Shown: one piece after another, positions 19,527 to 63,668 of the stretch | Position numbering within the stretch: position 1 is the stretch's first letter | Layout of the letters: each line of letters starts with the position of its first letter | Program-made: the position numbers and the translations under genes | The notes under the pieces: model-generated | Databases searched by the model: none | Seen by the model: only the letters and a program-made list of their open reading frames with translations | What the model was told of the DNA's origin: nothing | NCBI GenBank assembly: GCA_020348925.1 | Contig: CP070758.1 | Coordinates: forward strand, 1,010,469-1,074,468 | Direction: 5' to 3' | Origin: Gemmatimonadota bacterium | Lineage (GTDB): Bacteria; JBHIER01; G020348925 | DNA length: 64,000 nt

Positions 19527-19537
19527 TTACGAGAAAG

Positions 19538-22615: not shown

Positions 22616-22627
22616 GCATCGTATCCC

Positions 22628-23371: not shown

Positions 23372-23463
23372 CACTGACGGCTTACATCTGTTACCAGGGG
23401 GCTGACCCTGCCGATCCAATCCGTTTATCCCAGGTTTTCTGTGGGACTTGATAATAAACTATT

Positions 23464-25179: not shown

Positions 25180-25264
25180 GCAAACTGTAACACTGGTTAC
25201 GTTTTGCGGTTAGGGTCACGAAGCCCGTTTCGTAATTCGGTTAGGGTTAGGTTTCAACAAAAGA

Positions 25265-25478: not shown

Positions 25479-25492
25479 ATATCAGAAGCTGA

Positions 25493-25584
25493 GATCGCAC
25501 AGGATATGTATCCTGTGCGAAGGGATGGATAGGGATATATATCCCATTAAATATTTTCGCCCAGCATACATATACTGGGCGATC
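25493..25584. repeat. GATCGCACAGGATATGTATCCTGTGC repeat family (also 34586-34670 and 34699-34721)
   Basis: Near-identical ~85-bp triple-hairpin units on two contigs. Confidence 0.8.
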
Positions 25585-25646
25585 AAGTTTTTCCTTATTC
25601 TACGGGGCGGGCTTCGTTACCGTCACCGAACAACGAGGTCGAAAAT

Positions 25647-26669: not shown

Positions 26670-26816
26670 ACGGAGGAAATAAAAGTCCCCCTTTTCCAAG
26701 GGGGGGGAGATAGGGGGATTATTCAGATATTTTGCTCACCAACCCCTGACCACTGTTCCCTGACCACTATTCAAAAATCCATCATCAGAAAAAGCAGCCT
26801 GTCCCCTTTTATTCCG

Positions 26817-26912
26817 ATGCCCTAAAGCCTGAGCCGTCAAGACCATCCGACGCATGGAGCGGCCGTTTTTTCCGTGTCTGAGGACGAGCTGTGCGAGCCC
26901 GAGTTTGGAAAA
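26817..26912 (+). repeat. ~190-bp structured repeat, copy 5 (cut by gap)
   Basis: ATGCCCTAAAGCCTGAGCCG..GTTTTTTCCG..CGAGTTTGGAAA then N-run. Confidence 0.85.
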
Positions 26913-37054: not shown

Positions 37055-37082
37055 GAAGAAAGAATATACTGTTCCATGAACA

Positions 37083-37276
37083 CCCCTTCATTTTCTTTGC
37101 TTGTTCAAAGAAGACGAAGCAAAAGAAAGAACAACCCAATAAACATTCGCCGGGACTGTCATCGGCTTCCTCTGCTGTTTTTTCCAAACTCGGTCTCGCT
37201 TCGCTCCTCCTCAGACAGCGGAAAAAAACAACACTCCGCTTGCCGGACGATCCCAACGGCTCATGTTTCAGGGCAT
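37083..37276 (-). repeat. ~190-bp structured repeat, copy 9 (inverted)
   Basis: Reverse complement aligns to copies 2 and 7. Confidence 0.9.
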
Positions 37277-37433
37277 TTACTCCTATACTCCCCTGCACCT
37301 TTACAACTCTGCTCCCTGCCCTTGGCATTCAACNNNNNNNNNNNNNNNNNNNNNNNNNNNNNNNNNNNNNNNNNNNNNNNNNNNNNNNNNNNNNNNNNNN
37401 NNNNNNNNNNNNNNNNNNNNNNNNNNNNNNNNN

Positions 37434-38269
37434 ATTTCTGGGCCGATTCCAGTTACATGGTTCTCGGGGACAATACGGTTACGACCAATATGGATTTTTT
37501 CGCTTCACCCTTTACCCCTGTTCCCTCCGATTATAAGCTCATATACACCGAAGATGGGGACACTTCCATCAACAGGGTCGTGACACCTTTTGAGATCTGG
37601 AACGTGACCGAGAACACGAAGCCCGATTTTACTGTGCAGGAGCATACATCCGCACGGGACGGTAGGTGGACCGACGGGGAACCCATTGGTCTCTGGGAAC
37701 CGTATCCCTTCAGTCCGACTTGGACCATCAACCACTTCGCCCGGCCAGATACGTTGGGGATCGAGGATATCGACACCATACCCGGGCCGGATTTTCACAC
37801 CGTCCCAGGTCCTGGGGGTGAGCTTGATACCATCTGGCATTACATGTTCGGGGATACGCTGCCGATGCACACAGGTGATGAGATCTTCATCAAGACCCAG
37901 AAACCCATTATTGCAGGAGACCGCTTTCGGATAAATACACAAGCGTACAAGGTTGAGACCACAGCCCATGATGTTCTCGATTCGATCAAGGTCGTCCCCA
38001 ATCCCTATGTCGTCTCGGCAGAATGGGAACTGAACAGGAACATCCGGGAAATCCACTTCACCCACCTACCAAGCGTGTGTGACATTCACATCTACACACT
38101 CACTGGAGAGCCCATACGGACGATCCATCACGAAAATGAAACCGTCGGGTGGGCGGCCTGGGATCTTCTCACTGAAAATCGCCAATTGGTAGCATACGGG
38201 CTTTACATCTATGTGGTGGAGACTCCTGATGGGCGAACATATTTGGGCAAATTTGCTGTGATTCAATAG
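37434..38269 (+). CDS. Large secreted protein, C-terminal part with T9SS-like CTD (5' lost in gap)
   Basis: IKVVPNPY..IHFTHLP..IYTLTGE..WDL..GLYIYVV..GKFAVI. Confidence 0.85.
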
Positions 38270-38319
38270 AGGATACGAGCAATGAACGACATGCTTTCCT
38301 TCCAATTAAGGAGGTCGCG

Positions 38320-39399
38320 ATGATCAAACGCGTAATTGTTTTTCTGATGGTAGCCACAGCCGTGGCGAGTTGCGTCTGGGCTCAGGGAACAAACTTGCCC
38401 TTCAATAAAGTGGCCACATCGGCGGCTCAGTTTCTCAAATTTGGTGTCGGCGGTCGAGCCGTAGCGCTAGGTGGATCACATGCAGCCCTCTCGGGAGATG
38501 CCTCTGCGCTCTACTGGAATCCTGCCGGCATCGCCTCAATGCGCCGGAGCTCTCTGTACGCCTCATACATGGATTATTTCGTGGGTATTTCCCACAACTT
38601 CGTCGGTTACGTTCAGCCAATCGACGTCGAGAGCTCCTTCGGCGTCAGTATCATCTACTTGGACAGCGGCGATATTGAAATAACAACCATCGATCAACCC
38701 GAGGGGACAGGTTCATCTTACGACGTCAAAGACTTGGCCATAGGTCTGACCTATGCCAAATACATTACGGACCGTTTCATGGGTGGTGTGACGGTCAAGT
38801 ATATTCAAGAGGGGATTTGGCGGGAAAAGGCCCATACGTTCGCTTTCGATATTGGGTCCATATTGGACACAGGACTCTTAGGTATTAAATTGGGAATGAG
38901 CCTTTCCAATTTCGGAGGAAATATGAAGCTCGCCGGACCGGATCTGGATGTCGAGCACGACCGCTATGATGAGAATCCGGGTGACCGTGAAGTGCCGTCT
39001 CGGCTTGAGACTGAGGAGTGGCCCCTGCCACTTATCTACCGCATAGGCCTTGCCACAGATTTAGTCGGCATCGGAGGTCAACTTGCCGAGAGTGCTGAGA
39101 GTCGCTTGACACTCCTCTTCGATGCGAATGATCCGAACGATGCCGAGCTCAGGCCGAATGTGGGACTTGAATATCAGTGGAAGGATATTCTGAGCCTGCG
39201 GACCGGGGGGCTTTTTCGGTATACAGACGAGTGGGATGACACGGCGCAGGCGACACAGTGGAATTCTCGTCTCTTCCTCAGTTTCGGAGTCGGACTCAAT
39301 TGGGAGACGGACTGGGGTCTGATGCAGTTCGACTATGCGAGAATGGACTACGATCTCCTGGGATGGGTTGACCATTTCTCCCTGGGAGTCGGCTTTTAG
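38320..39399 (+). CDS. PorV/PorQ-family outer membrane protein
   Basis: AAQFLKFGVGGRAVALG, LYWNPAGIA, C-terminal Phe. Confidence 0.88.
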   Translation: MIKRVIVFLMVATAVASCVWAQGTNLPFNKVATSAAQFLKFGVGGRAVALGGSHAALSGDASALYWNPAGIASMRRSSLYASYMDYFVGISHNFVGYVQPIDVESSFGVSIIYLDSGDIEITTIDQPEGTGSSYDVKDLAIGLTYAKYITDRFMGGVTVKYIQEGIWREKAHTFAFDIGSILDTGLLGIKLGMSLSNFGGNMKLAGPDLDVEHDRYDENPGDREVPSRLETEEWPLPLIYRIGLATDLVGIGGQLAESAESRLTLLFDANDPNDAELRPNVGLEYQWKDILSLRTGGLFRYTDEWDDTAQATQWNSRLFLSFGVGLNWETDWGLMQFDYARMDYDLLGWVDHFSLGVGF

Positions 39400-52690: not shown

Positions 52691-52790
52691 NNNNNNNNNN
52701 NNNNNNNNNNNNNNNNNNNNNNNNNNNNNNNNNNNNNNNNNNNNNNNNNNNNNNNNNNNNNNNNNNNNNNNNNNNNNNNNNNNNNNNNNN

Positions 52791-54454
52791 ACAATACCGA
52801 TAGCGTCCAAGATATCAACCTGCCCGTCATCATTGCAGTCGGCACGGTCCATCGTCTCCTCGTCCAAAAGAACGTGACCCAAAATGTGGTTCACAAGTAA
52901 CAGCACATCCGTCACATCGATCTCGCCATCACCGTCCGCATCACCGCGCAACACCTCCGGTTCAACAGGACCTCCTTTCGGTTCGGAGTTCCCCACGAAC
53001 AGAACGTTCTGTTCCCCATAATTGGCGATAACGACATCAAGGACACCGTCACCATTGACATCACCAAGTTTGACTGCAGCGCTCACATCCTTGATAGCGG
53101 GCAAGTGATTTGCCACTTCTTCAGCATAAAAACCGGAACCGGTATTGACGAGGAGGTGATTTTGTCGTCCCTCTGACATGAATTTGTTGTTGGCCACGAT
53201 GATGTCCAAATCACCATCACCATCGACATCCCCAAAATCCGCACCTCCCATACTCACGTCCTGTACCAGCGGGAGCCTCACATCTGTCTCATCCTCGAAC
53301 ATTCCCGCTCCATCATTGATCAGCAAGAAATTTTGTGAACCGTCTCGGCCGGGCCACACTGAGGTCGAATCGCTCGCCCAAAAAATATCAAGATCATCAT
53401 CATTGTCGGCATCGAAAAAGATGACGCCTCTGGTGCTATTTCCTCTGTGAGAAAGCCTCTCATGGGATTGATCGGTAAACCTACCGGAGCCATCGTTCAC
53501 CAGGATGCGGTTGTGTCCATAAGGGTTCGCAACCACAATGTCAACATCGCTATCGCCATCGATATCCCCTACGTCAAACCCAACATCAGAATAGAATCCG
53601 AGGGGCATCCTGACCCCCGTCTCATCGACGAAGAACCCCGAACCATCATTGATCAAGAGTGTTCCTTGTCCCCCTGCAACGAAAAAACAGCTGCCAGGCC
53701 TGATACTATTCATTACAATAATATCCAGATCGTCATCCCCATCCACATCCACACATTTTGCATCCGTGCTGGCTGCAATGAACTGGGGCAGCCGCAATTC
53801 CGTCTCGTCATAAAATACACCGGTACCGTCATTTATCAACAGACGGTTGTGGCCGCTGAGTATTTCACAATCCGGCACCTGAAAGGCAAAATTATTGGCG
53901 ACGAAAATATCAAAATCCCCATCATTATCGACATCGCCAAATTCCACTCCCAAGCTGAAATCATCGTCCCGAGGCAATCGATTTTTCGTCTCATCATTGA
54001 AAATACCGAAGCCGTCATTTATGTACAAACGATTCTGCTGGCCGTCGGTATTCGCCATCAAAATATCGAGATCGTCGTCACCGTCAACATCGCCGAGTTC
54101 AATATCAGTACTGAAATCGATCAAAGCTGGTAGCCTGAATTCGGTTTCGTCCAGAAAGAGCTGTTTTTCATTTTGAGTCACAGGGGGAATGCTCGATGGC
54201 GCCTGACGAGTTGCCGAAGGCTTGAACGGCAACTCCGAGGGAACAACGCTAAGGGTACATTGATGTCCGTCTTGAAAAGTACAGATCTTCTTGGGCGCAA
54301 CAATCGGCACTTCCCACATACGATGTGAAGCCGAATGATCCGAGGCGAACGATCCTGTGCCAAAACACAGACTGGTGACGATAATGAGAGCTGTAAGCAG
54401 AGAAAAACTTTTTCCCCTATTTCGTTCATTGAAAATTTTCATGGCGCTTGCCAT
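52791..54454 (-). CDS. FG-GAP/VCBS beta-propeller protein with C-terminal dockerin (cut by gap)
   Basis: Seven GDVDGDxDLDI repeats; GDADGDGEIDVTD..ADCNDDGQVDILD; GAGGTG RBS before 54454. Confidence 0.88.
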
Positions 54455-54545
54455 ATTCACCTCGTTCGTCGCCACTCTTCGTTGGACAGCACTTCTCAAT
54501 CTTTCGGATATAAAAGAAAAGCCGAGCTGCAAGAAGTAACAATGA

Positions 54546-54628
54546 GACTTCGGCAACCCGGCCATCTCTGAAAAAGATCCGTTGGCTTTGTGCCCCCCGA
54601 TCACTCAGGGTTTACCTTTATCGAGTTC
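54546..54628 (-). ncRNA. Cyclic di-GMP-I (GEMM) riboswitch
   Basis: GGTAAACCCTGA-GTGA-TCGGGGGGCACAAAGCCAACGGATC..GATGGCCGGGTTGCCGAA matches GEMM consensus; followed by CTCGGC-TTTTCTTTT. Confidence 0.85.
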
Positions 54629-55277
54629 AATATCGACTCGTTATTGATGGGCTCTATTGTACTGATATCATTTTTTTGAACCCTGATCGAGAAGTGCTCC
54701 TGTGTCCGACAGCTATGCTCCTATTTCAGAAACCAATGCGATGATTTGGGGGGGTGACGAATATAAAGTGGTGGGAACTCCAAAAAACCCGGTCCTGCAT
54801 CTCATACGACCGACAACAGAGCAATGGTCTCAACTGAGATTTGTTATCAGGATTTTTTGGACATAAAAAATCCGCCCTTCTGTCATCGCAACGCCAAATA
54901 TACCTTCAGAATTCATCGGATCAAGAAAAATCTCACACTTTTTTTAAAATGGCATTGAAATAACTTCTTACATATAGAGAGAAAAAAGTTTAATTTCAAT
55001 AACTCATATAATATCAATGATTAAAAGAATACAAAGGAATATGCTCAGAGTGTCATATTTTGAACAGTGCCCTGGGGGGTTTGCCCTAATTGTGGTGAGA
55101 ACCCCGACAATCCGTTACAACAGTCCAATCATAATAATTCTGAAGTCCTACAGTGAAGAGAAAGTTCAACCTCGCTATCTTCATGGAGCTCATATTTATA
55201 TATCATTTTTTGTAACTCTGTGATGAACAAGCACCGGCATCTCCCCTTCTCCGAGTTCAGAAAAAATAAAAAACTTG

Positions 55278-55365
55278 TTGACAAAGGTTCTTTAATGATA
55301 TATTGTGTATCATTATTTCAGAGCTTTTGCAATGATATCTTGTGTATCATTATCTTAGAGCTTTT
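55278..55365 (+). promoter_or_regulatory. Promoter with two 35-bp direct repeats each holding an AATGATA-N7-TATCATT palindrome
   Basis: TTGACA-17-TATTGT; repeats at 55294-55328 and 55331-55365. Confidence 0.75.
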
Positions 55366-55401
55366 ACGTATCCTAAATATCCTTTTGGGGAGGGAAGACC
55401 C

Positions 55402-58400
55402 ATGAAAAGGGTAATGATTTTTTTGTTGATATTCGTGCTTTGTTCGACAGCAATATTCGGACAAGAGTTCGACAGAGATTACCTTCTTCAGAAGCGGAAA
55501 GTACGCGAACAAAGGAGAGAGACCCGCAATCAAATCCTCCAAAGGGCACTGTCTGAACAAGGACGATTGGTACCTGCTCAGGAAGATTATGACGTCAGAT
55601 TCTACGAACTCGACTTGAATATAGATCCTACTACAGAATCCATAACCGGAACGGTTACGATTCGTGCGGAAAGCGTAACTGATAACCTGACCCAGGTTGT
55701 CGTCAATTTATCAAATACAATGACAGTTACAGGCGTATCGGGAGATGGTTCTGGATTCACGCACGTCGACGAGTTACTAACAATTGATCTGAACAGATCT
55801 TATAATCAGGATGAGACATTCCACATTTCGATCGCCTACACCGGAAATCCGGTTGAAGCTTACAGGGGCCTGGGATTTCATTTCGACACATACGGTGGTG
55901 AACCAGCAATTTCCAATGACAGTTATCCCTATTTCGCCCGGAGTTGGTGGCCGTGTAAAGACGATCCCGCAGACAAAGCCGATTCAATAAGCATGATTAT
56001 TACTGTTCCCGACGGTTTGACCGTCGTCTGCAACGGTAGTCTGAGAAGTGTGACGAACAATCCAGACAATACGACAACCTATTTTTGGCACGAAGGATAT
56101 CCCATATCTACCTATCTGGTCGCTCTTGCTGCCGCCAACTATTCCACCTTCTCAGACATCTACTACCCCCAGGACGGCGATCCGCTGGAAATACTCTATT
56201 ACGTTTTCCCGCAGGATTTGAACGCTGCCATGGAAGATTTCAATATCAACGTTGAAGCTATGGAATATTTCGTGTCAATCTATGGCGAATATCCATTTCT
56301 TGGTGAAAAATACGGGATTACAACCTACCTGAGCCCTTTCGGCGCTATGGAATATCAAACCATAACTTTTTATACTCCCGGACTGATAACGGGCACCCAC
56401 GACAACGATGACGTCGTGGTCCACGAATTGGCCCACATGTGGTGGGGCGATGCAGTAACGAACGCGGACTGGCACAGCACCTGGCTGAACGAGGGCTTCG
56501 CCGTTTACTCCGAAGCCCTCTGGTTCGGATATCTCGGTGGCATGGATGTTTACCATGACTACATGGATATTACTGTGAATGCCTTGGGATATACGGAGCC
56601 TCTCTACCGGTACGATACCAGCGATCCTTGGGGAGTTGTGGCTGGTGTCGTCTACGATAAAGGTGCCTGGATCTTGCATATGCTCAGGTATGTGGTGGGC
56701 GATGACACATTTTTCCAGATTCTCCTCGAGTACCGAGCGCAATACGAATTCGGAAATGTCACCACTGAAGATTTACAGGCCGTCTGCGAGCAGGTCTCCG
56801 GTCAGGATTTGAACTGGTTTTTCCAGGAATGGATATACGAATCCTGGCACCCTGAATACTACTGGGGATGGCACATCGAGAATGTCGTGGGCAATGAGTA
56901 TGCCGTCAAAGGATTTATCGATCAAATTCAGGAGATTGGACCTATCTTCACGATGCCCCTGGATATCGGCATCGTCACGGCTGGCGGGGATACCCTGTAC
57001 GAAACCGTTTATTCTGACGAGCAGTCCGAGATTTTTCAACTCACTGTGAATGAAGAACCTGTTGAGCTGTTGCTGGATCCATTCAACTGGGTCTTGAAGG
57101 AGGCGCAGGGCGTCTTCACACCCCTGGTGAACTACGCGAGCTCCACCGTCCGGGACGACGGCGATAATGACGGTCGAGCCGATCCCGGTGAAGCGTTACA
57201 ACTGACCCTGGAGATTTTCAACGCCGGTGTTTTTGCCTACGACTTGTCAGCCGAGCTGGACACGGACGATCCCGATGTGACGATCACCTCAGGAGCAACA
57301 GATTACGGTGACGTTCCCCACAACAATACCGTTGGGAACGATCAAACCCCGTTTCTTCTCAGCGTCCAGTCCTCGGCCGAAACTCACCTGATTAAATTTT
57401 ACATCTCCTTCACGGCCTCCAACGGGTATACAGGTCTCGACAGTTTCTATCTGACCGTCGGCTCGCCGTCGCTTTTACTGGTTGATGACGACGGCGGTGA
57501 ACAATACGAGAGAATCTACCAAGCCTATCTGGCCTCGGATGCGGTGCCCTTTCAGGTATGGGGAGCCGACAAGGAGGGGACACCCGGCGATACGCTGGAC
57601 GATTTCGAAGTGGTGATGTGGTGTACGGGACGGACTCGGGAAAACACCTTGACGGCAGCCGACCAAACGGCTCTCTCCGCTTACCTGGACAACGGCGGAC
57701 GACTCTTCCTCAGCGGCCAGGACATCGGGTACGACCTGGTTGCGTTGTCCAACGGTGTCGATTTTTACACGAATTATCTTCGCGCTGAGTTTGTTGAGGA
57801 TGTATCACCGGAGGGCTTCTTACAGGGCGTCACCGGCGACCCGATCACAGGAGCGCTGGGTCTCCTTCTGGTGAGTCAAACAGTGAACAGCCCGGACGTG
57901 ATCGCACCCTCCGTCGGGGCAAACGTGGCCCTGCAGTACAGCCCTTCGAGGGCGGCGGCCGGCCTTAAATACGGTGGTGATTATCGTCTCGTCTACTTCG
58001 CCGTCGGTCTGGAGGGATTTCAGGCCATAACCGGAGATATCGAACCCGTAAGGGAAACAGTGTTGTCCAATATCGTTCAATGGCTGCAACACGATCCCCA
58101 AAAAGGAGACGTGAACGAGGACGGCGCCATCAACATCCTGGACGTGGTCTGGGCCATCAACATCATACTCGGCTCGATCGATCCAGGACCATCGCAACAG
58201 TGGTCCGCAGATTTCGACGACAACGGCTCCGTCAACGTCCTGGACGCCATCAAAATCGTAAATGAAATACTGGGGCCGGCGGGAATGAAGATGTTACCGA
58301 ACCTCGATAGGGAGAGAACGACAATTTGCGTTGAAATCGAGACCGACAAACCTCTTGCCGGAGCTCAGTTGAACATCGCCTTTGATCCCGAGCAGTGTAC

Positions 58401-58956
58401 CCCCACCGCACCACTGGTGAAAAGAGGTGCTCTCGAAGCAGCTGCCTCAATGAATGAGAACGAGATGACTGTTCTTCTCTACAGTCTCGAGGGAAGACCC
58501 GTTCCCGAAGGTGGAACGCTCGTCGAAATTCCCTTGACAGTTTTGGATAACCAACCGGGTGGTCCGAACATCTGGTTGCAGGAATCGACCCTGGCCGGTG
58601 TGGATGGGCAAGAGATCTCCGGCCGGGTTACTGTGATCCGCCCCAAGGCGGCTTTTGAACTTCCAACCGGATTCGAGCTTTTCCAGAATGTTCCCAATCC
58701 ATTCAATCCGGAGACCGAGATCCGTTTCGGTATTCCAGCCGGGTACGACGATGGATTGAGTGTTGTTCTGACAATATATAATGTCTTAGGCCAAAAGGTG
58801 CGTACACTTGTCCACGGCAAGTTTGAGGCCGGCTACTACACAGTCCGGTGGGATGGTTTGAACCATCAGGGCCATCCTGTGGCCAGTGGCCTCTATTTCT
58901 ATCTGCTGGAGACGCCCGATTTCAGGACCATGAAGCGCATGGTTCTGATGAAATAA
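55402..58956 (+). CDS. Secreted M1-family aminopeptidase with dockerin, cohesin-like domain and T9SS-type CTD
   Basis: GAMEY, HELAH-18x-E (NEGFA), VYDKGA; dockerin GDVNEDGAINILD..ADFDDNGSVNVLD; CTD QNVPNPFNPET..KRMVLMK. Confidence 0.92.
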   Translation: MKRVMIFLLIFVLCSTAIFGQEFDRDYLLQKRKVREQRRETRNQILQRALSEQGRLVPAQEDYDVRFYELDLNIDPTTESITGTVTIRAESVTDNLTQVVVNLSNTMTVTGVSGDGSGFTHVDELLTIDLNRSYNQDETFHISIAYTGNPVEAYRGLGFHFDTYGGEPAISNDSYPYFARSWWPCKDDPADKADSISMIITVPDGLTVVCNGSLRSVTNNPDNTTTYFWHEGYPISTYLVALAAANYSTFSDIYYPQDGDPLEILYYVFPQDLNAAMEDFNINVEAMEYFVSIYGEYPFLGEKYGITTYLSPFGAMEYQTITFYTPGLITGTHDNDDVVVHELAHMWWGDAVTNADWHSTWLNEGFAVYSEALWFGYLGGMDVYHDYMDITVNALGYTEPLYRYDTSDPWGVVAGVVYDKGAWILHMLRYVVGDDTFFQILLEYRAQYEFGNVTTEDLQAVCEQVSGQDLNWFFQEWIYESWHPEYYWGWHIENVVGNEYAVKGFIDQIQEIGPIFTMPLDIGIVTAGGDTLYETVYSDEQSEIFQLTVNEEPVELLLDPFNWVLKEAQGVFTPLVNYASSTVRDDGDNDGRADPGEALQLTLEIFNAGVFAYDLSAELDTDDPDVTITSGATDYGDVPHNNTVGNDQTPFLLSVQSSAETHLIKFYISFTASNGYTGLDSFYLTVGSPSLLLVDDDGGEQYERIYQAYLASDAVPFQVWGADKEGTPGDTLDDFEVVMWCTGRTRENTLTAADQTALSAYLDNGGRLFLSGQDIGYDLVALSNGVDFYTNYLRAEFVEDVSPEGFLQGVTGDPITGALGLLLVSQTVNSPDVIAPSVGANVALQYSPSRAAAGLKYGGDYRLVYFAVGLEGFQAITGDIEPVRETVLSNIVQWLQHDPQKGDVNEDGAINILDVVWAINIILGSIDPGPSQQWSADFDDNGSVNVLDAIKIVNEILGPAGMKMLPNLDRERTTICVEIETDKPLAGAQLNIAFDPEQCTPTAPLVKRGALEAAASMNENEMTVLLYSLEGRPVPEGGTLVEIPLTVLDNQPGGPNIWLQESTLAGVDGQEISGRVTVIRPKAAFELPTGFELFQNVPNPFNPETEIRFGIPAGYDDGLSVVLTIYNVLGQKVRTLVHGKFEAGYYTVRWDGLNHQGHPVASGLYFYLLETPDFRTMKRMVLMK

Positions 58957-59031
58957 GGCAATCGCGTGGACGTGTGTCCTGTGAAGCCAATGAATCGGTG
59001 ATGTATCACCATTTCAAAGGAGGATTGTAGG

Positions 59032-61944
59032 ATGAAACATCCAGTCACATTCATCGTCAGTTTTGTTCTAATGGCCTTCCTCGCTGGTTCTATCAACGGC
59101 GATACGTTATCTGTTGCCAGCGGTGAGGGTGAGCGCGGCAGTACGGGGAACATCATCTCAGTCGATCTGAACAATGATGTGGGAGTTTGGGGTGTTCAAT
59201 TCGATCTCATTTTCGACTCCTCGGTCTTGACCCTGGACGACGTCGATACGACTGACAGAGCAGAGCAATTCGATTTTTTTGTGTATAACAGAATCAATCC
59301 CAACAATGTCCGTTTCATTATGTTCTTCGGCAGTTTTGACGTACTGCTCCCTGGCACAGGCTCAATTGTTGACCTTTCATTTTCCGTAGCTACCGACGCT
59401 CGACCGGGTGAATACCCCTTAACACTCCAGAGAGTTCAAGTTACCGACACACTGGGAGCCATTCTGCCCTTCGACTTGGTCAACGGAATTTTTAAGGTGA
59501 CGGTAGTCCTCGACTCGCTGCGTATCACTCCGAGACCGGCCGAGGTGGCCTGCGCCGAGACGCAGCAGTTCACGGCCACCGGCTACGATACCCAAGGACA
59601 GCCCGTGGACCTTGACGCCCTGTGGGACGTCCTTCCAACCCATCTGGGACAGATCAACGCCACCGGACTCTTCACGGCTGACAGTCAGGGCACGGGGTGG
59701 GTCTATGCGACCTTTGAAACATGGGAAGATTCCGTTTCCCTGAACGTGATACCGGGAGAACCGGAAACAGTCGACGTCGAGCCGGACTCCGCAACCCTCG
59801 TTTCAGGAACACAACAGCTCTTTACAGTTGAGGGCGTCGATGAATGCGGTAACATGTTCGAACCCGCAGTAATCTGGGCCGTTCATCCCCAAGATCTGGG
59901 AACCATTGATCAAACCGGGCAGTTCACTGCCGTAAAGGCCGGCAGCGGTTGGATCGTCGCCTCCGGATCGCCTGAAGATTCATCTTTCGTCACCGTAGTT
60001 GTGGGGCCGCTCGATTCCATCGACATCTCCCCTGATGCGGGCACACTCGTATGCAATAATACCCTTCAATTCACGGCCCAGGGATTTGACGCCAACGGAA
60101 ACGACGTCACTGTGGACCCGGACTGGGCGGTGGTTCCTGAAGACCTGGGAGATATCGACACGACCGGACTCTTTACTGCTTCCAGAATCGGTGAGGGTTG
60201 GGTCTTGGTCGGACAGGATGCCATCTTCGATTCAGCCCATGTTGTTGTCGAAGGGGGCGCTCTAACCGTTCTTGATATTGAACCTGATGTGGCGGAGGTT
60301 GTATCCGGTGAAAACCGGCAGTTCACCGCCCTCGGCTACGACGATTGCGGAAATAGTATTACCTTCCAACCAGAATGGTCCGTCTCTCCTCCGGAGTTAG
60401 GGACCATCGATTCAAACGGCCTCTTCCTCGCTCAGGTTGAAGGTCAAGGATGGGTCATCGTCTCAGGATCAGCCCAGGATTCCGCTCAAGTCACTGTGCA
60501 ACATGGCTGGGCCACAAGCCTGAACCTGACTCCTGAAGAGGCTTTTGCTGCTCCCGGAGATTCGATTGTGTACACCGCCACTGCCAGTGACGGAATCAAC
60601 GAGTGGGACGTGACCGATCTGATCATTTGGTCGACCACGGATCCGAGCGGCGCATTTTCAGACAATATCTATATTGCCGGCACAGAGGGAGAATGGCTGG
60701 TTATTGCCACACATACGGTTCCGTTATCGGATACGGTCCACGTCACAGTCTCCATCACTGATGTTGCGTTTGCATTGCCACTCACTCCTGGTTGGAATAT
60801 GATCTCCCTGCCTATCGTTCCTGAGACACTGGACATAGATGTTTTATTCCCCAATGCTCTGGCCCAGTGGAAATATGCGGGAGGCTATCAATGGCTCGAC
60901 GACGTTGAACTGTGTACGGGGTTCTGGATATTTGTCGATGAGGCCGATACTGTGAATATTGTAGGGGAGCCTATCCGGACATGCTGTCTGGATATGCTGA
61001 CAGGTTGGAACTTGGTGGGTTCGGTGATTTGTGAGATGCCGATTGATGAGATTGTCGATACGACGACTTGGGAATTTCCAATATATGTAAGCCCCATGAA
61101 TGTTTGGGCCTGGCAGGTGGGTGGATATATGCCCGTCTCGGAGATCGATCCAGGTGCTGCTGTGTGGTTATTGGCAGAGAGCCCTGGAACCGTCTGTTTT
61201 TCGTGCGACAGCCTTGAGGCTCTGAAAACAACTTCCAACATGCCAAAACTTACGGATCCATCGTGGAAAGCATCCATCCATTTGGAAAGTACCGGTGAAC
61301 GAAAAACCCTCGAGTTTGGAGTTCACGAAGATGCGACAGCGGGGATTGATAGGGGCTTTGACGTGGCAGTACCGCCGCTCCCACCGGGAGACAATGTCCG
61401 CACACTCCAATTTGAGGGTGAAAACGATCTCGGGGTCAACTTTTGGAGGGATATCAGGGGTTCTGAGAATGCCAGATGGTCTCTCGTTTTTGACAGCGAG
61501 AGTGAGATCCTGCTATCCTGGGAGGTATCTGAAATTCCCCAGGACCTGTCTATTCTCCTGAAAACGGCGACGGAACAGATCGACATGAGAGCACAGACGG
61601 AACTGCAGCTCCACGAGGGATCATATAAATTCGAAGTAATATTGCGCCAGGGTCCGCAATCATTCACCCTGGAACAGAACTATCCGAATCCCTTTAATCC
61701 GAGGACGGAGATTCGATATCAGTTACCTCATGTTGGATCTTCCCTTCACACCACACTGACGATCTACAACATTCTCGGCCAGGAAGTACGGACTCTTGTG
61801 AATGAAGTCAAGGAGCCGGGCTATTACCAGGTGACCTGGGATGCCCGGGACGATTTTGGGTTTGAGGTTTCGAGTGGTGTATATTTCTATCAGATACGAA
61901 CAGAGAACTTTGTCGAGACAAAACGCATGCTCCTCATGAAATAA
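59032..61944 (+). CDS. Scaffoldin-like protein: N-terminal cohesin, ~5 Ig-like repeats, T9SS-type CTD
   Basis: GVQFDLIFD..PGTGSIVDLSFSV..PGEYPLTL cohesin; QQFTA.G.D..LG.ID.TG.FTA repeats; QNYPNPFNP..KRMLLMK. Confidence 0.85.
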   Translation: MKHPVTFIVSFVLMAFLAGSINGDTLSVASGEGERGSTGNIISVDLNNDVGVWGVQFDLIFDSSVLTLDDVDTTDRAEQFDFFVYNRINPNNVRFIMFFGSFDVLLPGTGSIVDLSFSVATDARPGEYPLTLQRVQVTDTLGAILPFDLVNGIFKVTVVLDSLRITPRPAEVACAETQQFTATGYDTQGQPVDLDALWDVLPTHLGQINATGLFTADSQGTGWVYATFETWEDSVSLNVIPGEPETVDVEPDSATLVSGTQQLFTVEGVDECGNMFEPAVIWAVHPQDLGTIDQTGQFTAVKAGSGWIVASGSPEDSSFVTVVVGPLDSIDISPDAGTLVCNNTLQFTAQGFDANGNDVTVDPDWAVVPEDLGDIDTTGLFTASRIGEGWVLVGQDAIFDSAHVVVEGGALTVLDIEPDVAEVVSGENRQFTALGYDDCGNSITFQPEWSVSPPELGTIDSNGLFLAQVEGQGWVIVSGSAQDSAQVTVQHGWATSLNLTPEEAFAAPGDSIVYTATASDGINEWDVTDLIIWSTTDPSGAFSDNIYIAGTEGEWLVIATHTVPLSDTVHVTVSITDVAFALPLTPGWNMISLPIVPETLDIDVLFPNALAQWKYAGGYQWLDDVELCTGFWIFVDEADTVNIVGEPIRTCCLDMLTGWNLVGSVICEMPIDEIVDTTTWEFPIYVSPMNVWAWQVGGYMPVSEIDPGAAVWLLAESPGTVCFSCDSLEALKTTSNMPKLTDPSWKASIHLESTGERKTLEFGVHEDATAGIDRGFDVAVPPLPPGDNVRTLQFEGENDLGVNFWRDIRGSENARWSLVFDSESEILLSWEVSEIPQDLSILLKTATEQIDMRAQTELQLHEGSYKFEVILRQGPQSFTLEQNYPNPFNPRTEIRYQLPHVGSSLHTTLTIYNILGQEVRTLVNEVKEPGYYQVTWDARDDFGFEVSSGVYFYQIRTENFVETKRMLLMK

Positions 61945-61991
61945 GAAATTCGATGTTGCGTCCGGCACCCACCGGACCTCAGTAGGTTTTT

Positions 61992-62026
61992 AAGCCGCCG
62001 GGAGTAGTAATCCCGGCGGCTTTTTT
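61992..62026 (+). terminator. Rho-independent terminator
   Basis: AAGCCGCCGGGA-loop-TCCCGGCGGCTTTTTT. Confidence 0.9.
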
Positions 62027-62207
62027 AAACCACCCACATGTCAGATCCTCCGAATTGCCGGCATATTCCTCTCTCCAACTCCTAATATTTTTGACTTGAC
62101 AGTGACGACAAAATCCACTATCCTTTCAAGTACTGAAAGCAGAACCAGGTTTGCATCCAATTCACCCTGAACCCGCGACGGCCGATCCTTTTAAAAGGAG
62201 GATGAAG

Positions 62208-63335
62208 ATGAAGGGGAAAACACTCATCCCTATTCCTTTTTGGGGAAAATTGGTGCTACTTGTAACCGCAGGGTTCACTCTCTTTCTCTTCAATAACATC
62301 TGGGGTCAGAATGCATTGATCGTAGAGAATGCTGACTACTTCAGGGGATCAATAGGTAATATTCTGACTATCACTATGGTTAACGAGGGTAATGTTGCTG
62401 GTATCATGCTTGATATAACTTTCGACCCTGACTGCTTTTCTATTGATCCTGAAAGTTGTTCAAAGACTGACCGAACTATAGATATGAATATTTTCGCAGC
62501 AGTCAATCCGGAGCCAGGACTTATCAGATTTACGGCGGCAAGTCTTGGCACATTCATTCCTCCGGGATCAGGTCCTATTGTTCGCTTTACTGTGGGCGTA
62601 TCCTCAGAATGTGAACTTGGGCAGTATACCTTTGCCTTATCGAACTCAAAATTTGCTGATCCGGCTGGTAGAGAATATCCTCATGATGTGGTGAATGGAA
62701 TCATAACTGTTTGGCCTCCAACGGTATTAAATGTTGAGGATCAGGTTGTCTTTCAAAATTCTCGTGATAATGTCATCAATCTTAATTTGGACGATGAGTC
62801 TCAAGATGCGCTAATATGTGCTGCAGAGGTTTCTATTTTGTACGATACAACGTGTTTTGAAGTGATCTCAGTAGAACCAACGAACCGAACAAGAGATCTC
62901 AATATTTTTCAATATGCTGATAGAGATAGTGGAATTCAAATCGCTATGACTGGTCTTGGTGCATGTATTTTGAAAGGAACAGGTCCTATTGCAAGAATTA
63001 ATGTAAATGTCAGTAATTGCCCGGAAGGTTTTTTTTCTTGGAATATATCCAATGCAAAATTAGCAGACGGAGGAGGCAATATTATTCCCTTCATCGAGGT
63101 TGATGGCAACATTGCCATCTATACGAGTCCTAAAGGGAATGTAAACGATGACGGCACAATCGATGCCCTTGATGTCGTCCTCACCATCAGAATTGCCATT
63201 GGTCAATACCCTGATCCAAGCGAGAGCGAACTCCAAGCTGCAGACTGCAATTTAGACGGACAGGTTGATGTCTCAGATGTCATCGGTATTGTCAATATTA
63301 TTACAGGACTTGGAATCTGTCTGCCTTTAAATTAA
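62208..63335 (+). CDS. Adaptor scaffoldin-like protein: two cohesins plus dockerin
   Basis: AGGAGG RBS, signal peptide, two ~135-aa cohesin-like repeats (FDPDCF/YDTTCF, T.RT.D.NIF, G.GPI), dockerin GNVNDDGTIDALD..ADCNLDGQVDVSD. Confidence 0.83.
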   Translation: MKGKTLIPIPFWGKLVLLVTAGFTLFLFNNIWGQNALIVENADYFRGSIGNILTITMVNEGNVAGIMLDITFDPDCFSIDPESCSKTDRTIDMNIFAAVNPEPGLIRFTAASLGTFIPPGSGPIVRFTVGVSSECELGQYTFALSNSKFADPAGREYPHDVVNGIITVWPPTVLNVEDQVVFQNSRDNVINLNLDDESQDALICAAEVSILYDTTCFEVISVEPTNRTRDLNIFQYADRDSGIQIAMTGLGACILKGTGPIARINVNVSNCPEGFFSWNISNAKLADGGGNIIPFIEVDGNIAIYTSPKGNVNDDGTIDALDVVLTIRIAIGQYPDPSESELQAADCNLDGQVDVSDVIGIVNIITGLGICLPLN

Positions 63336-63350
63336 TTATTGGAAGGATTG

Positions 63351-63668
63351 ATGTTAAAAAAATTGTTCATATTTTTTATTACAGTACATATCATCTTTGT
63401 AGCTGGGGAAATTTGGAGCCAGAATACATTTAGCGTAGAGAATGCTATTTTCTTATTGGGATCGACTGACAACATTCTGACTATCAGCTTGAATGTTGAC
63501 TCCTATGTTGCTGCCATTCAGTTTGATCTCTCGTATGACTCAAACTGCTTTATTATCGATCCACAAAGTTTAACACGAACCGATCGAACTGTAGATTTGA
63601 CTGTTTTTCAGGCCAGCAATCCCGAGCCAGGCCTGATCATGTTTGCAGGGACCGGTATTGGTACGACC
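63351..63668 (+). CDS. Cohesin-domain protein, paralog of upstream gene (cut by gap)
   Basis: VENA.F..GS..NILTI, AAIQFDLSYDSNCF, NPEPGLI shared with previous gene. Confidence 0.8.

What the first reader, a model, noticed from the sequence alone, without database searches (positions are those of the whole stretch)
55402..63668. Cellulosome-like cohesin-dockerin complex carrying a peptidase, apparently exported via T9SS-type CTDs
Seen: four co-oriented genes on one contig encode an M1 aminopeptidase with dockerin and CTD, a cohesin + Ig stalk + CTD protein, a two-cohesin + dockerin protein, and another cohesin paralog. Known: cohesin-dockerin pairs assemble cellulosomes in Clostridium and Ruminococcus, and cohesin+dockerin proteins act as adaptor scaffoldins; T9SS CTDs route and often anchor proteins at the FCB cell surface. 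Inference: a surface-tethered, branched multi-enzyme complex for protein rather than polysaccharide degradation in a Gram-negative lineage. No glycoside hydrolase with a dockerin is visible in the window.
Basis: partly seen in the sequence, partly recalled or inferred. Interest (0 to 1): 0.9.

Follow-up and report, generated by a model that had tools for sequence, protein, structure and literature searches.

The report
Cohesin-dockerin surface system on T9SS cargo
An uncultured sediment bacterium fits peptidases and adhesin-like proteins with the plug-and-socket modules that cellulose-degrading clostridia use to build cellulosomes, on proteins tagged for export by the type IX secretion system, and it has more of these modules than any published genome I found.

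Summary
Four co-oriented genes lie on one assembly piece (window 52791-63668):
- an intact M1 metallopeptidase with dockerin, a divergent cohesin and a T9SS C-terminal domain (CTD);
- a protein with an N-terminal cohesin, a Big_2 stalk and a CTD;
- a protein with two cohesins and a dockerin;
- a cohesin protein cut off by the piece end.

Pfam, profile comparison and AlphaFold2/Foldseek support the domain calls.

The locus is one of very many. 277 of 300 tested dockerin modules pass Pfam, which gives at least 263 and up to 295 ORFs. There are 96 Pfam cohesin matches (174 with a genome-trained HMM) and 264 CTD ORFs. SprA and PorU are present, with a PorV-like gene next to PorU. GldK/L/M/N were not found.

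Among 289 cargo segments, the listed peptidase families (48) far outnumber glycoside hydrolase or lyase families (5). GH9 and CBM3 were not found, and the one weak GH5 hit is not on a dockerin ORF. Adhesin-like repeats dominate the cargo.

In 80 related loci the M1 homologue usually carries only a CTD, so the dockerin was added in this lineage.

No binding or expression was shown. A comparable cellulosome-like, CTD-anchored complex was already proposed for Cloacimonadota. I rate this a new variant of a known kind, notable for its scale and for the dockerin-cohesin-CTD cassette.

The parts
52793..54604 (-). Divergent upstream gene on the same assembly piece: six FG-GAP repeats plus a C-terminal dockerin. 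Its 3' end is cut by the gap at 52691-52790.
   Evidence: FG-GAP_3 135 bits in 6 stretches; Dockerin_1 33.7 bits at aa 554-601.
55402..58956 (+). P0001, an M1 metallopeptidase. Order of parts: signal peptide, M1_N, M1 catalytic domain, beta-sandwich, GATase-like alpha/beta domain, dockerin, divergent cohesin, T9SS CTD. The listed ORF starts at GTG 55342; the database protein P0009 has 1184 aa, which puts the start at the ATG at 55402.
   Evidence: HELAH followed 18 residues later by E, and GAME, are read directly in the translation.
55603..56832 (+). Peptidase_M1_N (aa 88-259) and Peptidase_M1 catalytic domain (aa 300-497) of P0001.
   Evidence: 65.3 and 108.8 bits; partial matches to leukotriene A4 hydrolase and PepN models, well below their equivalog cut-offs.
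57127..58098 (+). Recurring two-domain cassette with no Pfam family: a beta-sandwich (aa 596-706) and a class I glutamine-amidotransferase-like alpha/beta domain (aa 711-919).
   Evidence: AF2 model, pLDDT 90.3. Foldseek match to 2a9v, TM 0.66 on the target. BLAST finds it in 42-43 ORFs of the genome, 35-37 of them with a dockerin.
58102..58272 (+). Dockerin of P0001 (aa 921-977), with two D-x-N/D-x-D/N-G...D loops.
   Evidence: 38.9 bits; 44.2 bits at G000:C1:1068570-1068740. Helices at model residues 343-388.
58306..58641 (+). Divergent cohesin of P0001 (about aa 989-1100), the middle part of the dockerin-cohesin-CTD cassette.
   Evidence: Pfam 17.6 bits and 21.3 bits, both below the 24.1 cut-off. 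A profile of 33 such modules against the genome's other cohesins gives hhalign probability 99.6%, E 1.7e-24. The same profile hits solved cohesins: 3l8q at E 1.1e-5; 2jh2, 2w1n and 2xdh at E 4e-3 to 7e-3. The top Foldseek hit of the model is 2w1n, a cohesin + FN3 construct, E 1e-9.
58693..58956 (+). T9SS-type C-terminal domain of P0001 (aa 1118-1204).
   Evidence: FlgD_ig 36.9 bits, above its cut-off of 27. TIGR04183 19.5 bits, below its cut-off of 23. Beta-sandwich with pLDDT above 90.
59032..61944 (+). P0002, the putative anchoring scaffoldin: signal peptide, N-terminal cohesin (about aa 38-165; 59143-59526), Big_2 stalk (about aa 165-560), an unassigned region, and a T9SS type A CTD (aa 884-967; 61681-61941).
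   Evidence: Cohesin 23.8 bits, Big_2 68 bits. TIGR04183 36.4 bits, above the cut-off of 23. Cohesin 27.9 bits at G000:C1:1069623-1069913.
62208..63335 (+). P0003, the putative adaptor without a CTD: signal peptide, cohesin 1 (62367-62720), cohesin 2 (62778-63125), dockerin (63135-63305).
   Evidence: Cohesin 55 bits in 2 stretches, Dockerin 30.5 bits. AF2 pLDDT 90.9. Foldseek matches solved cohesins at TM 0.80-0.84 on the target. The database protein P0005 has 375 aa.
63351..63668 (+). P0004, the N-terminal part of a further cohesin protein, cut by the end of the assembly piece.
   Evidence: the translation runs into N. Cohesin 17.1 bits; 45% identity to P0003.

Best explanation
The four genes are a local module of a genome-wide cohesin-dockerin system that assembles proteins on the cell surface. 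The organism is an uncultured, phylogenetically isolated, diderm sediment bacterium.

Shown:
- The domain architectures, the cohesin and dockerin folds, and an intact M1 zinc site.
- T9SS-type CTDs on P0001 and P0002.
- SprA and PorU pass their cut-offs; a PorV-like gene (below its cut-off) sits next to PorU.
- At least 263 dockerin ORFs and about 100 cohesin ORFs.
- Cargo dominated by peptidases and adhesin-like repeats.

Inferred:
- The proteins cross the inner membrane by Sec.
- CTD-bearing ones (P0001, P0002) pass the SprA translocon. PorU removes the CTD and either links the protein to the surface or releases it.
- P0002 then stands on the surface as a stalk, with its cohesin at the far end.
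- P0003 plugs its dockerin into an anchored cohesin and offers two more cohesins.
- Dockerin-bearing cargo, such as the M1 aminopeptidase and the FG-GAP protein encoded upstream, docks there in a calcium-dependent way.
- Because P0001 and 32 other proteins carry dockerin, cohesin and CTD together, the product is more likely a cross-linked surface network than a strict scaffold-and-enzyme hierarchy.
- Its job would be to hold exopeptidases, endopeptidases and adhesins together at the cell surface, for attaching to and digesting proteinaceous particles.
For: Domains.

Folds:
- The P0003 model (pLDDT 90.9) matches CipA and ScaA cohesin structures at E 1e-14 to 1e-12, and single cohesins at TM 0.80-0.84 on the target.
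- The P0001 C-terminal model (pLDDT 90.3) has 2w1n, a cohesin + FN3 construct, as its top hit.
- The divergent cohesin class is homologous to the genome's other cohesins (hhalign 99.6%).

T9SS parts:
- SprA 568 + 135 bits (cut-off 200).
- PorU 738 bits (cut-off 420).
- A PorV-like gene 120 nt downstream of PorU, 190 bits.

Census:
- 153 Pfam dockerin matches when only 150 of 527 candidates were scored.
- A genome-trained HMM finds 309 modules in 295 ORFs. Of these, 127 of the 150 weakest and 150 of the next 150 pass Pfam at E <= 1e-3.
- 96 Pfam cohesin matches, 73 above the cut-off.
- 264 CTD ORFs. 77 of 103 cohesin ORFs and 104 of 295 dockerin ORFs carry a CTD. Up to 6 cohesins occur on one CTD protein.

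Cargo, in 289 segments:
- Peptidases: M28 10, C25 7, M14 6, S41 5, M1 5, S8 5, M6 3, C1 3, and M56, M64, M23 and DPPIV_N 1 each; 48 in all.
- Glycoside hydrolases and lyases: 5 (alpha-amylase, GH99, GH31, GH57, heparinase II C-terminal domain).

Lineage:
- The only same-family genome has at least 116-121 matches from 271 candidates.
- 63 other genomes sampled have 0-45.
- Of 80 related M1 loci, 54 have a CTD only and 2 have a dockerin.

Assembly: the locus is contiguous in public contigs.
Against: - No binding data of any kind.
- With hundreds of paralogous modules, the partners of these four proteins may be encoded elsewhere, and gene adjacency may only reflect tandem expansion.
- No RNA or protein evidence that the genes are expressed.
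- GldK gives only a weak sub-threshold match. GldL, GldM and GldN give none in this genome; GldL and GldN were also sought, and not found, in its one relative. The control genomes were also silent for GldL, GldM and GldN, so these blanks are weak.
- The CTD of P0001 is below the TIGR04183 cut-off.
- P0003 and 190 other dockerin ORFs lack a CTD, so their route across the outer membrane is unexplained. Only one secretin-like gene was found, and it is below the GspD cut-off.
- Most dockerin cargo is non-enzymatic, so 'protein degradation' is only part of the picture.
- The Pfam tallies show only the top 25 families per batch (25 of 31, 31, 58, 57, 56 and 48), so rare CAZyme families may be hidden.
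- ORFs are stop-to-stop frames in a fragmented MAG, not curated genes.
Confidence: 0.6

Rival explanations
1. The modules are real and bind, but the four neighbours are not each other's partners. The locus arose by tandem duplication and shuffling of a very large paralogous family, and the true partners of each cohesin and dockerin are encoded elsewhere. On this view there is no dedicated peptidase complex at this locus.
For: - 338 cohesin or dockerin ORFs make up 279,069 aa, about 16.6% of the 5.04 Mb, and are packed into 138 neighbourhoods holding up to 8 such ORFs each.
- P0004 is 45% and P0002 30% identical to P0003 cohesins, as expected of local duplication.
- Only 1 of 80 related M1 loci has a cohesin neighbour, so no conserved synteny supports an operon.
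- Only 1 terminator-like site was found in 54300-63668, against 8.2 expected, and promoter-like sites occur before three of the genes. This does not settle whether it is an operon.
Against: - The genes are co-oriented and tightly spaced (75 nt and 3 nt at two of the three junctions).
- Anchor-like, adaptor-like and enzyme architectures are complementary.
- Cellulosomal scaffoldin gene clusters are a known arrangement (recalled, not tested here).
Confidence: 0.22
2. Piggy-back export. Cohesin-dockerin pairing happens in the periplasm and gives CTD-less dockerin proteins (such as P0003, and the 153 proteins whose dockerin sits at the very C-terminus) a ride through the T9SS translocon on CTD-bearing cohesin proteins. 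The modules would then act first as a secretion adaptor and only afterwards as a surface tether.
For: - 191 of 295 dockerin ORFs lack a CTD, whereas 77 of 103 cohesin ORFs have one.
- 153 dockerins lie within 15 aa of the ORF end.
- Lipoboxes are rare: 3 of 178 by a crude rule.
- Only one secretin-like gene was found, below the GspD cut-off.
- T9SS is known to move folded cargo (recalled, not tested here).
Against: - No precedent that I know of for hitch-hiking through T9SS.
- The same numbers fit the ordinary model of free enzymes docking on anchored scaffoldins.
- Another outer-membrane route may exist but be unrecognised.
- The signal-peptide rule used is unspecific: it scored 55% positives in a background set.
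Confidence: 0.1
3. The dockerin-like and cohesin-like modules do not pair with each other here. They would serve as calcium-stabilised linkers and beta-sandwich spacers, or bind other ligands such as glycans or prey or partner cell surfaces, as has been discussed for non-cellulosomal modules in archaea and Omnitrophota.
For: - Dockerin and cohesin domains occur widely outside cellulose degraders with unclear roles (passages of PMC9012536 and of bioRxiv 10.1101/2023.11.21.568195).
- Much of the cargo is adhesin-like.
- 7 of the 150 weakest modules also score as EF-hand.
Against: - Both partner families are expanded together in the same genome, and in the same proteins.
- Multi-cohesin CTD proteins with up to 6 cohesins look like scaffoldins.
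- The dockerins keep both calcium loops.
- The cohesins match solved dockerin-binding cohesins closely.
Confidence: 0.06
4. Binning or assembly artefact. The large counts would come from mixing several organisms in one MAG, or the locus would be chimeric.
For: - The record is 206 pieces joined by N runs.
- GC varies from 0.37 to 0.59 along the window.
Against: - Contamination is estimated at 0.52% and completeness at 96.3%.
- The only same-family genome, from another record, shows the same expansion.
- One public contig spans 52791-63201.
- Paralogues share lineage-specific cassettes.
Confidence: 0.02

Closest known systems
Clostridial and ruminococcal cellulosomes (C. thermocellum CipA with its anchoring scaffoldins; Pseudobacteroides cellulosolvens; R. 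flavefaciens FD-1)
   Same: - Cohesin and type I dockerin modules.
- Multi-cohesin proteins, cohesin + dockerin adaptors and cell-anchored scaffoldins.
- The P0003 model matches CipA and ScaA structures.
- The repertoire is of the same order as, or larger than, the published record holders. [quoted passage not shown] FD-1 has 222 dockerin proteins (abstract of PMC2930009).
   Different: - Diderm host.
- Anchoring by a T9SS CTD rather than SLH or sortase. That those are the clostridial anchors comes from a passage of PMC9012536; I did not search this genome for SLH.
- GH9 and CBM3 were not found. The GH48 search also found nothing, but its control genomes were silent, so it is uninformative. 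The one weak GH5 hit is off the dockerin set.
- The cargo is peptidases and adhesin-like repeats.
- Many cargo proteins carry a cohesin and a CTD themselves.
Predicted cellulosome-like complex of Ca. Stygibacter (Cloacimonadota), PMC8542988
   Same: From the passages read:
- An uncultured lineage.
- Dockerins on S8 and C25 peptidases as well as on GH18 and GH57.
- A scaffoldin-like cohesin protein with a conserved CTD for surface attachment.
- The inference is purely genomic.
   Different: - There, a handful of dockerin enzymes and one 3,755-aa scaffoldin with CBM2/CBM3. Here, at least 263 dockerin ORFs, about 100 cohesin ORFs and no CBM3.
- Here there is a dockerin-cohesin-CTD cassette, and dockerin and CTD occur on the same protein in 104 ORFs.
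- I could not see that paper's Table 1 or its supplements.
Non-cellulosomal cohesin-dockerin pairs: C. perfringens NagJ/GH84C cohesin (2w1n, 2jh2, 2ozn) and the Archaeoglobus fulgidus cohesin (2xdh)
   Same: - These are the best structural and sequence matches of the divergent cohesin class.
- 2xdh matches the P0003 cohesins (TM 0.81 on the target).
- The modules sit on non-cellulolytic enzymes.
   Different: Those systems have a few modules per genome and no T9SS. Their biology is recalled from memory, not tested here.
Extensive dockerin/cohesin proteins of ANME archaea (PMC9012536)
   Same: Many dockerin and cohesin proteins in an uncultured sediment organism. Scaffoldin-like proteins carry a dockerin and up to 5 cohesins. 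A role in cell-cell or surface interactions is proposed (passages).
   Different: Archaeal envelope, no T9SS. I did not see the counts, which are in supplements.
T9SS cargo display in Bacteroidota (CTD cleaved by the PorU sortase, cargo attached to the surface)
   Same: - Type A CTD (TIGR04183) on P0002.
- PorU and SprA above their cut-offs, with a PorV-like neighbour.
- C25 gingipain-like and PAD_porph cargo are present.
   Different: - GldK/L/M/N were not detected.
- 16 PorV-like matches.
- The cargo is additionally fitted with cohesin and dockerin modules.
- The attachment chemistry is recalled from memory, not tested.

Membership tests
Cohesin (PF00963) | Sequence match to the family model at or above the gathering score | tested here: met
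   P0003 scores 55 bits against a cut-off of 24.1. P0002 scores 23.8 bits as a protein and 27.9 bits in the genome scan. P0001 (17.6 and 21.3 bits) and P0004 (17.1 bits, truncated) are below the cut-off.
Cohesin (PF00963) | Nine-stranded beta-sandwich fold superposable on solved cohesins | tested here: met
   P0003 model: TM 0.80-0.84 on the target and rmsd 1.9-2.7 A to 1g1k, 1aoh, 3ul4 and 2xdh. P0001's divergent module: the model's top hit is 2w1n, a cohesin + FN3 construct, at E 1e-9, and its profile scores 99.6% against the genome's other cohesins.
Cohesin-dockerin pair | Calcium-dependent, specific binding of the dockerin to the cohesin | not testable with these tools
   This needs recombinant modules tested by ELISA or ITC with and without EDTA.
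Dockerin type I (PF00404) | Model match above the cut-off, with two duplicated calcium-binding loop-helix segments | tested here: met
   P0001 38.9 bits and P0003 30.5 bits against a cut-off of 22.9. Both loops can be read. Three helices appear in both models. Genome-wide, 277 of 300 modules tested pass at E <= 1e-3.
T9SS type A C-terminal sorting domain (TIGR04183 / PF18962) | C-terminal beta-sandwich of about 80 aa matching the model above its cut-off | tested here: met
   P0002 scores 36.4 bits against a cut-off of 23. P0001 scores only 19.5 bits, but FlgD_ig gives 36.9 bits against a cut-off of 27, and the model shows a C-terminal beta-sandwich with pLDDT above 90. So P0001 is borderline.
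Type IX secretion system | Outer-membrane translocon SprA, sortase PorU and shuttle PorV | tested here: met
   SprA 568 + 135 bits (cut-off 200). PorU 738 bits (cut-off 420). The PorV-like gene next to PorU scores 190 bits, below its cut-off of 250.
Type IX secretion system | PorK/L/M/N (GldK/L/M/N) trans-envelope motor | tested here: inconclusive
   GldM none. GldK 95 bits against a cut-off of 350. GldL and GldN none in this genome or its one relative. The control genomes were silent for GldL, GldM and GldN, and the models were trained on Bacteroidota.
Cellulosome in the strict sense | Dockerin-bearing cellulases (GH5, GH9, GH48) and a cellulose-binding CBM3 on the scaffoldin | tested here: not met
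   GH9 0 matches and CBM3 0 matches. GH48 0 matches, with a silent control. GH5: one hit of 32.6 bits at 2757806-2758201, outside every cohesin or dockerin neighbourhood listed. No cellulase family appears in the listed tallies.
Cellulosome in the strict sense | Scaffoldins with several cohesins, and adaptor proteins with cohesins plus a dockerin | tested here: met
   Cohesins per ORF: one in 58, two in 28, three in 12, four in 2, five in 2, six in 1. 60 ORFs have both module types.
Peptidase family M1 (gluzincin aminopeptidase) | HEXXH-X18-E zinc site and the GXMEN exopeptidase motif (motif names recalled from memory) | tested here: met
   Peptidase_M1 108.8 bits. HELAH followed 18 residues later by E is read. 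The GXMEN position reads GAMEY (N replaced by Y), so exopeptidase specificity is not certain.

The most novel reading that the evidence does not exclude
In this lineage cohesin-dockerin pairing is an integral part of type IX secretion. CTD-bearing cohesin proteins carry CTD-less dockerin proteins (191 ORFs) through the SprA translocon. The same contacts then knit about a sixth of the genome's coding capacity into a combinatorial, self-assembling surface proteome. That would be the largest cohesin-dockerin interactome known, and it would be used for proteolysis and adhesion rather than cellulolysis.
Probability: 0.1. Interest if true: 0.85.

Novelty: new variant of a known kind. Interest (0 to 1): 0.62.

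Why it matters
Cohesin-dockerin assembly is the textbook device of Gram-positive cellulose degraders and a workhorse of synthetic biology.

Here the same device appears in a diderm from a lineage with only one other genome in its family among the held GTDB species; the other genomes offered as relatives share only the domain. Four things set it apart:
- It sits on proteins tagged for type IX secretion.
- It carries peptidases and adhesins instead of cellulases.
- Its module count exceeds the published record holders.
- It uses a dockerin-cohesin-CTD cassette that puts both partners next to the membrane anchor. Proteins of KSB1 and Zixibacteria MAGs carry the same cassette. I found no description of it in the papers searched.

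If binding is confirmed, three things follow. It would give hundreds of new, presumably orthogonal, cohesin-dockerin pairs. It would offer a model for how sediment bacteria organise extracellular proteolysis. And it would raise a testable question of how CTD-less partners leave a diderm cell.

Tried and rejected
- Complex prediction: P0003's two cohesins, P0001's dockerin and 2 Ca, with my own alignments. The verdict was 'no answer' (score 0.15, mark 0.32, controls not run). I count this as neither for nor against binding.
- The look-up of sequencing runs: no RNA holder is listed, so there is nothing to say on expression. The DNA holders are sediment metagenomes. The small shares were not used for habitat claims.
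- The signal-peptide heuristic is too unspecific to use as evidence: 89% positives in CTD-less dockerin ORFs against 55% in a background set.
- Single-linkage clustering of the cargo segments gave one giant component because of shared repeats. I replaced it with a stricter clustering.
- The promoter and terminator scan is uninformative: 17 promoter-like sites against 11.5 expected, and 1 terminator-like site against 8.2 expected.
- Synteny in the only relative could not be judged. Its M1 homologue lies on a 4,450-nt contig, and P0003's best homologue lies on a 2,537-nt contig.
- The GH48, GldL, GldM and GldN searches rang in no control genome, so their blanks are weak.
- I considered and rejected filing the locus as a cellulosome (see the membership test), and filing it as a MAG artefact.

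Full report
OBSERVATION

The region holds four + strand ORFs, which I translated as P0001-P0004.

Pfam and NCBIfam give the following.
- P0001 (1204 aa from GTG 55342; probable start is the ATG at 55402, because the database protein P0009 has 1184 aa): Peptidase_M1_N 65 bits, Peptidase_M1 109 bits, Dockerin_1 38.9 bits, a sub-threshold Cohesin match of 17.6 bits at aa 995-1085, FlgD_ig 36.9 bits, TIGR04183 19.5 bits.
- P0002 (970 aa): Cohesin 23.8 bits at aa 42-137, Big_2 68 bits, TIGR04183 36.4 bits at aa 884-967.
- P0003 (394 aa; 375 aa as called in the database): Cohesin 55 bits in two stretches, Dockerin_1 30.5 bits.
- P0004: the start of a cohesin protein that runs into N.

The zinc site of P0001 (HELAH, with E 18 residues on) is intact in the translation. 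The GXMEN position reads GAMEY (motif names recalled from memory).

The genome record is 206 assembly pieces joined by 100-N runs. The finding occupies one piece, window 52791-63668. In a public run that may be the source of this DNA, a 13,062-nt contig spans 52791-63201. Contigs of a second sample of the same study bridge the P0001/P0002 junction.

FOLDS

An AlphaFold2 model of P0003, built on an alignment of 39 rows, has mean pLDDT 90.9.
- Foldseek places it on the C. thermocellum CipA ternary complex (4fl4, 3kcp; E about 1e-14) and the A. cellulolyticus cohesin dyad (3l8q).
- It matches single cohesins at TM 0.80-0.84 on the target and rmsd about 2 A (1g1k, 1aoh, 3ul4, 2xdh).

A model of P0001 aa 590-1204 (65 rows, pLDDT 90.3) shows five parts in order:
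- a beta-sandwich;
- an alpha/beta domain resembling class I glutamine amidotransferases (2a9v, TM 0.66 on the target);
- the three-helix dockerin;
- a second beta-sandwich;
- the C-terminal beta-sandwich.
Its top PDB hit is the cohesin + FN3 construct of C. perfringens GH84C (2w1n, E 1e-9).

The sub-threshold cohesin of P0001 belongs to a class of 33 modules that always sit between a dockerin and a CTD.
- Their profile matches the genome's other cohesins with hhalign probability 99.6% (E 1.7e-24).
- It also hits solved cohesins (3l8q at E 1.1e-5; NagJ cohesins and 2xdh at E 4e-3 to 7e-3).
- On a FastTree of 170 cohesin modules the class is clustered: 5 label changes for 33 rows, against 30.4 in shuffles.
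I therefore accept these modules as divergent cohesins.

THE GENOME-WIDE SYSTEM

Pfam Dockerin_1 gives 153 matches in the genome even though only 150 of 527 first-look candidates were scored. Pfam Cohesin gives 96 matches at E <= 0.01, 73 above the cut-off, with all 141 candidates scored.

I built HMMs from the locus's own modules and iterated them over 34,336 stop-to-stop ORFs of at least 60 aa. They find:
- 309 dockerin modules in 295 ORFs;
- 174 cohesin modules in 103 ORFs;
- 264 CTD ORFs.

As a check, I scanned the dockerin modules against Pfam. 127 of the 150 weakest and 150 of the next 150 match PF00404 at E <= 1e-3. The 9 strongest were not sent. That gives 277 validated modules of 300 tested, and at least 263 dockerin ORFs.

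For comparison, from abstracts only:
- R. flavefaciens FD-1 has 222 dockerin proteins (PMC2930009).

The 338 cohesin or dockerin ORFs total 279,069 aa, about 16.6% of the 5.04 Mb.

ARCHITECTURES

- 104 dockerin ORFs also carry a CTD.
- 77 of 103 cohesin ORFs carry a CTD.
- 60 ORFs have both module types, and 43 have all three.
- 153 dockerins sit within 15 aa of the ORF end, the classical position.
- 61 dockerins are followed by a CTD, and 35 by a cohesin.
- One CTD protein has six cohesins.
- The region of P0001 between the catalytic domain and the dockerin is a recurring cassette, found in 42-43 ORFs, 35-37 of them with a dockerin.

CARGO

I cut the 295 dockerin ORFs into 289 segments of at least 100 aa lying outside cohesin, dockerin and CTD. 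They fall into 153 clusters, 119 of them singletons. I scanned every segment against Pfam at E <= 1e-5 in six batches. Each output lists only the 25 most frequent families, out of 31, 31, 58, 57, 56 and 48, so the counts are lower bounds.

Listed peptidases, 48 segments in all:
- M28 10, C25 7, M14 6, S41 5, M1 5, S8 5, M6 3, C1 3;
- M56, M64, M23 and DPPIV_N 1 each.

Also listed: Beta-lactamase 6 and PAD_porph 2.

Listed glycoside hydrolases and lyases, 5 segments: alpha-amylase, GH99, GH31, GH57 and the heparinase II C-terminal domain.

Non-catalytic families are the most frequent:
- FG-GAP_3 31, Laminin_G_3 30, PKD_4 26;
- HYDIN/VesB-like Ig 20, TSP_3 19, He_PIG 16;
- LVIVD 7, Fib_succ_major 7.

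Direct genome searches find no GH9 and no CBM3. They find no GH48, but the control was silent. The single GH5 hit of 32.6 bits lies outside every cohesin or dockerin neighbourhood. The system is not a cellulosome in the strict sense.

SECRETION MACHINERY

- SprA (568 + 135 bits; cut-off 200) and PorU (738 bits; cut-off 420) are present.
- A PorV-like gene follows PorU (190 bits, under the cut-off of 250). There are 16 PorV-like matches in all, one of them in the window at 38368-38928 (Pfam PorV 41 bits).
- GldM, GldL and GldN give no match, and GldK gives only 95 bits against 350. The controls were silent for GldL, GldM and GldN, so the motor is 'not detected', not 'absent'.
- A TonB-dependent receptor in the window, together with SprA and PorV, fits a diderm envelope.
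- One secretin-like gene exists, below the GspD cut-off.

LINEAGE AND RELATIVES

- Among 40 'relatives', only one genome shares the family. All the others are related only at domain level.
- That relative (3.7 Mb, 87% complete) has at least 116-121 dockerin matches from 271 candidates.
- The other 39 genomes have 0-20 matches.
- Among 24 further named genomes reached through loci, the highest counts are CSSED10-310 with 45, a Phycisphaerae MAG with 43 (150 of 205 candidates scored) and Zixibacteria RBG_16_43_9 with 32. The rest have 0-6.
- P0003 has only three relatives among 5.8 billion proteins, at 64, 48 and 41% identity.
- Homologues of the M1 peptidase in 80 loci of Zixibacteria, Eisenbacteria, Latescibacterota, KSB1, WOR-3, Marinimicrobia and other MAGs carry only a CTD in 54 cases, none of the three modules in 24, and a dockerin in 2: the same-family MAG and one Zixibacteria genome. 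Only 1 of the 80 loci has a cohesin neighbour. So a widespread T9SS-cargo peptidase acquired the dockerin-cohesin insert in this lineage.
- The dockerin-cohesin-CTD cassette itself is not unique. 890 proteins match P0001 aa 915-1204 at E <= 1e-3. Some cover 98% of the cassette at 30-38% identity and carry PF00404 + PF00963 + PF18962/PF13860. These include proteins named from KSB1 (among them an S8 peptidase), Zixibacteria and 'Deferribacteres' MAGs.
- The DNA occurs in sediment metagenomes.

MECHANISM

The best-supported reading is a T9SS-coupled surface assembly held together by cohesin-dockerin contacts.
- P0002 is a stalked anchor.
- P0003 is a CTD-less adaptor.
- P0001 is an aminopeptidase that can both dock and be docked.
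Every step after the domain calls is inference. That covers CTD cleavage and attachment by PorU, calcium-dependent docking, and which module pairs with which. Because so many cargo proteins carry a cohesin and a CTD of their own, I expect a cross-linked network rather than a strict hierarchy. Because adhesin-like repeats dominate the cargo, I expect adhesion to be as important as proteolysis.

The main rival is that the neighbours are products of tandem expansion and are not each other's partners.

One open problem is how the 191 CTD-less dockerin ORFs cross the outer membrane. Piggy-back export on CTD-bearing cohesins is the boldest reading that the numbers allow.

WHAT IS KNOWN

- Non-cellulosomal cohesin and dockerin modules are long known. 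Peer et al. 2009 is the usual reference; I saw it only as a citation.
- A cellulosome-like complex with dockerin-bearing S8 and C25 peptidases, GH18 and GH57, and a cohesin scaffoldin anchored by a conserved CTD, was proposed from MAGs of Ca. Stygibacter (PMC8542988, passages).
- ANME archaea have extensive dockerin and cohesin proteins of unknown role (PMC9012536, passages).
- Omnitrophota giant proteins carry dockerin repeats (bioRxiv 10.1101/2023.11.21.568195, passages).
- Amylosomes and mucinolysomes appeared in search listings.
- My searches were: cohesin + dockerin + type IX secretion, 10 papers; a six-term search for cohesin or dockerin in candidate phyla, 91 papers with 25 listed; dockerin + T9SS + metagenome-assembled, 4 papers; dockerin, peptidase, candidate phylum, cellulosome-like, 19 papers; KSB1 + dockerin, 2 papers, both on viruses. 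None of the titles or abstracts describes a dockerin-cohesin-CTD cassette, or a T9SS lineage with hundreds of dockerins.
- Supplementary files were not consulted, and they may hold counts that bear on this.

VERDICT

- Novelty: a new variant of a known kind. It stands out for its scale, its coupling to T9SS CTDs, its peptidase and adhesin cargo, and its isolated lineage.
- Nothing about binding, expression or export has been shown.

Noticed in passing
window 37076-39399: A CTD-bearing protein with no Pfam family (37076-38269) is followed by a PorV-like outer-membrane protein (38320-39399; Pfam PorV 41 bits). The genome has 16 PorV-like matches, an unusual number of putative T9SS shuttle paralogues.
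   Followed up: partly
window 57127-58098 and 42-43 other ORFs of G000: A recurring cassette with no Pfam family: a beta-sandwich plus a class I glutamine-amidotransferase-like alpha/beta domain. It sits between catalytic domains (M1, M28, C25 and others) and the dockerin. Its function is unknown.
   Followed up: partly
G000:C1:4277832-4283474, G000:C1:3287811-3292174 and the whole genome: SprA, PorU and a PorV-like gene are present, but GldK/L/M/N are not detected with the NCBIfam models. GldL and GldN were also sought, and not found, in the one family relative. Either the motor is very divergent or this T9SS-like system is built differently.
   Followed up: partly
G000:C1:4469627-4470763 and G001:C242:2191-3330: The only secretin-like (GspD-like) match carries one in-frame TAG at the same profile position in both genomes of the family. 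It could be two adjacent genes, a shared break or recoding.
   Followed up: no
window 32016-33074 (-) and 6104-8599 (-): Two further members of the system lie in the window on other assembly pieces. One has He_PIG + cohesin (23.8 bits) + dockerin (39.6 bits). The other is a protein of more than 830 aa with a weak InhA-like MAM hit, whose ORF carries a dockerin further on.
   Followed up: partly
window 58599-58961 and 61503-61865: Summed contig depth rises 1.5- to 3-fold exactly over the two CTD-coding stretches, with many loose ends at 61668-61701, in all four runs. The conserved CTD motif recruits contigs of many other genes and organisms.
   Followed up: no
window 10001-22000: GC swings from 0.37 (10-14 kb) to 0.55-0.59 (16-22 kb) within one assembly piece (9294-26912). 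This could be an island or foreign DNA.
   Followed up: no
genome-wide: The lineage is very isolated. Only one other species genome shares its family in the held GTDB set, and every other 'relative' offered is related only at domain level.
   Followed up: partly
dockerin ORFs of G000 (batches A3-A6): Unexpected cargo on dockerin proteins: Kazal-type protease inhibitor, LanC-like, rhodanese, alkaline phosphatase, peptidyl-arginine deiminase (PAD_porph), DUF362 and DUF3160.
   Followed up: no
G000:C1:4080164-4080334: One of the best-scoring dockerin matches (54 bits) has an in-frame TGA, so it may be a broken or frameshifted gene.
   Followed up: no
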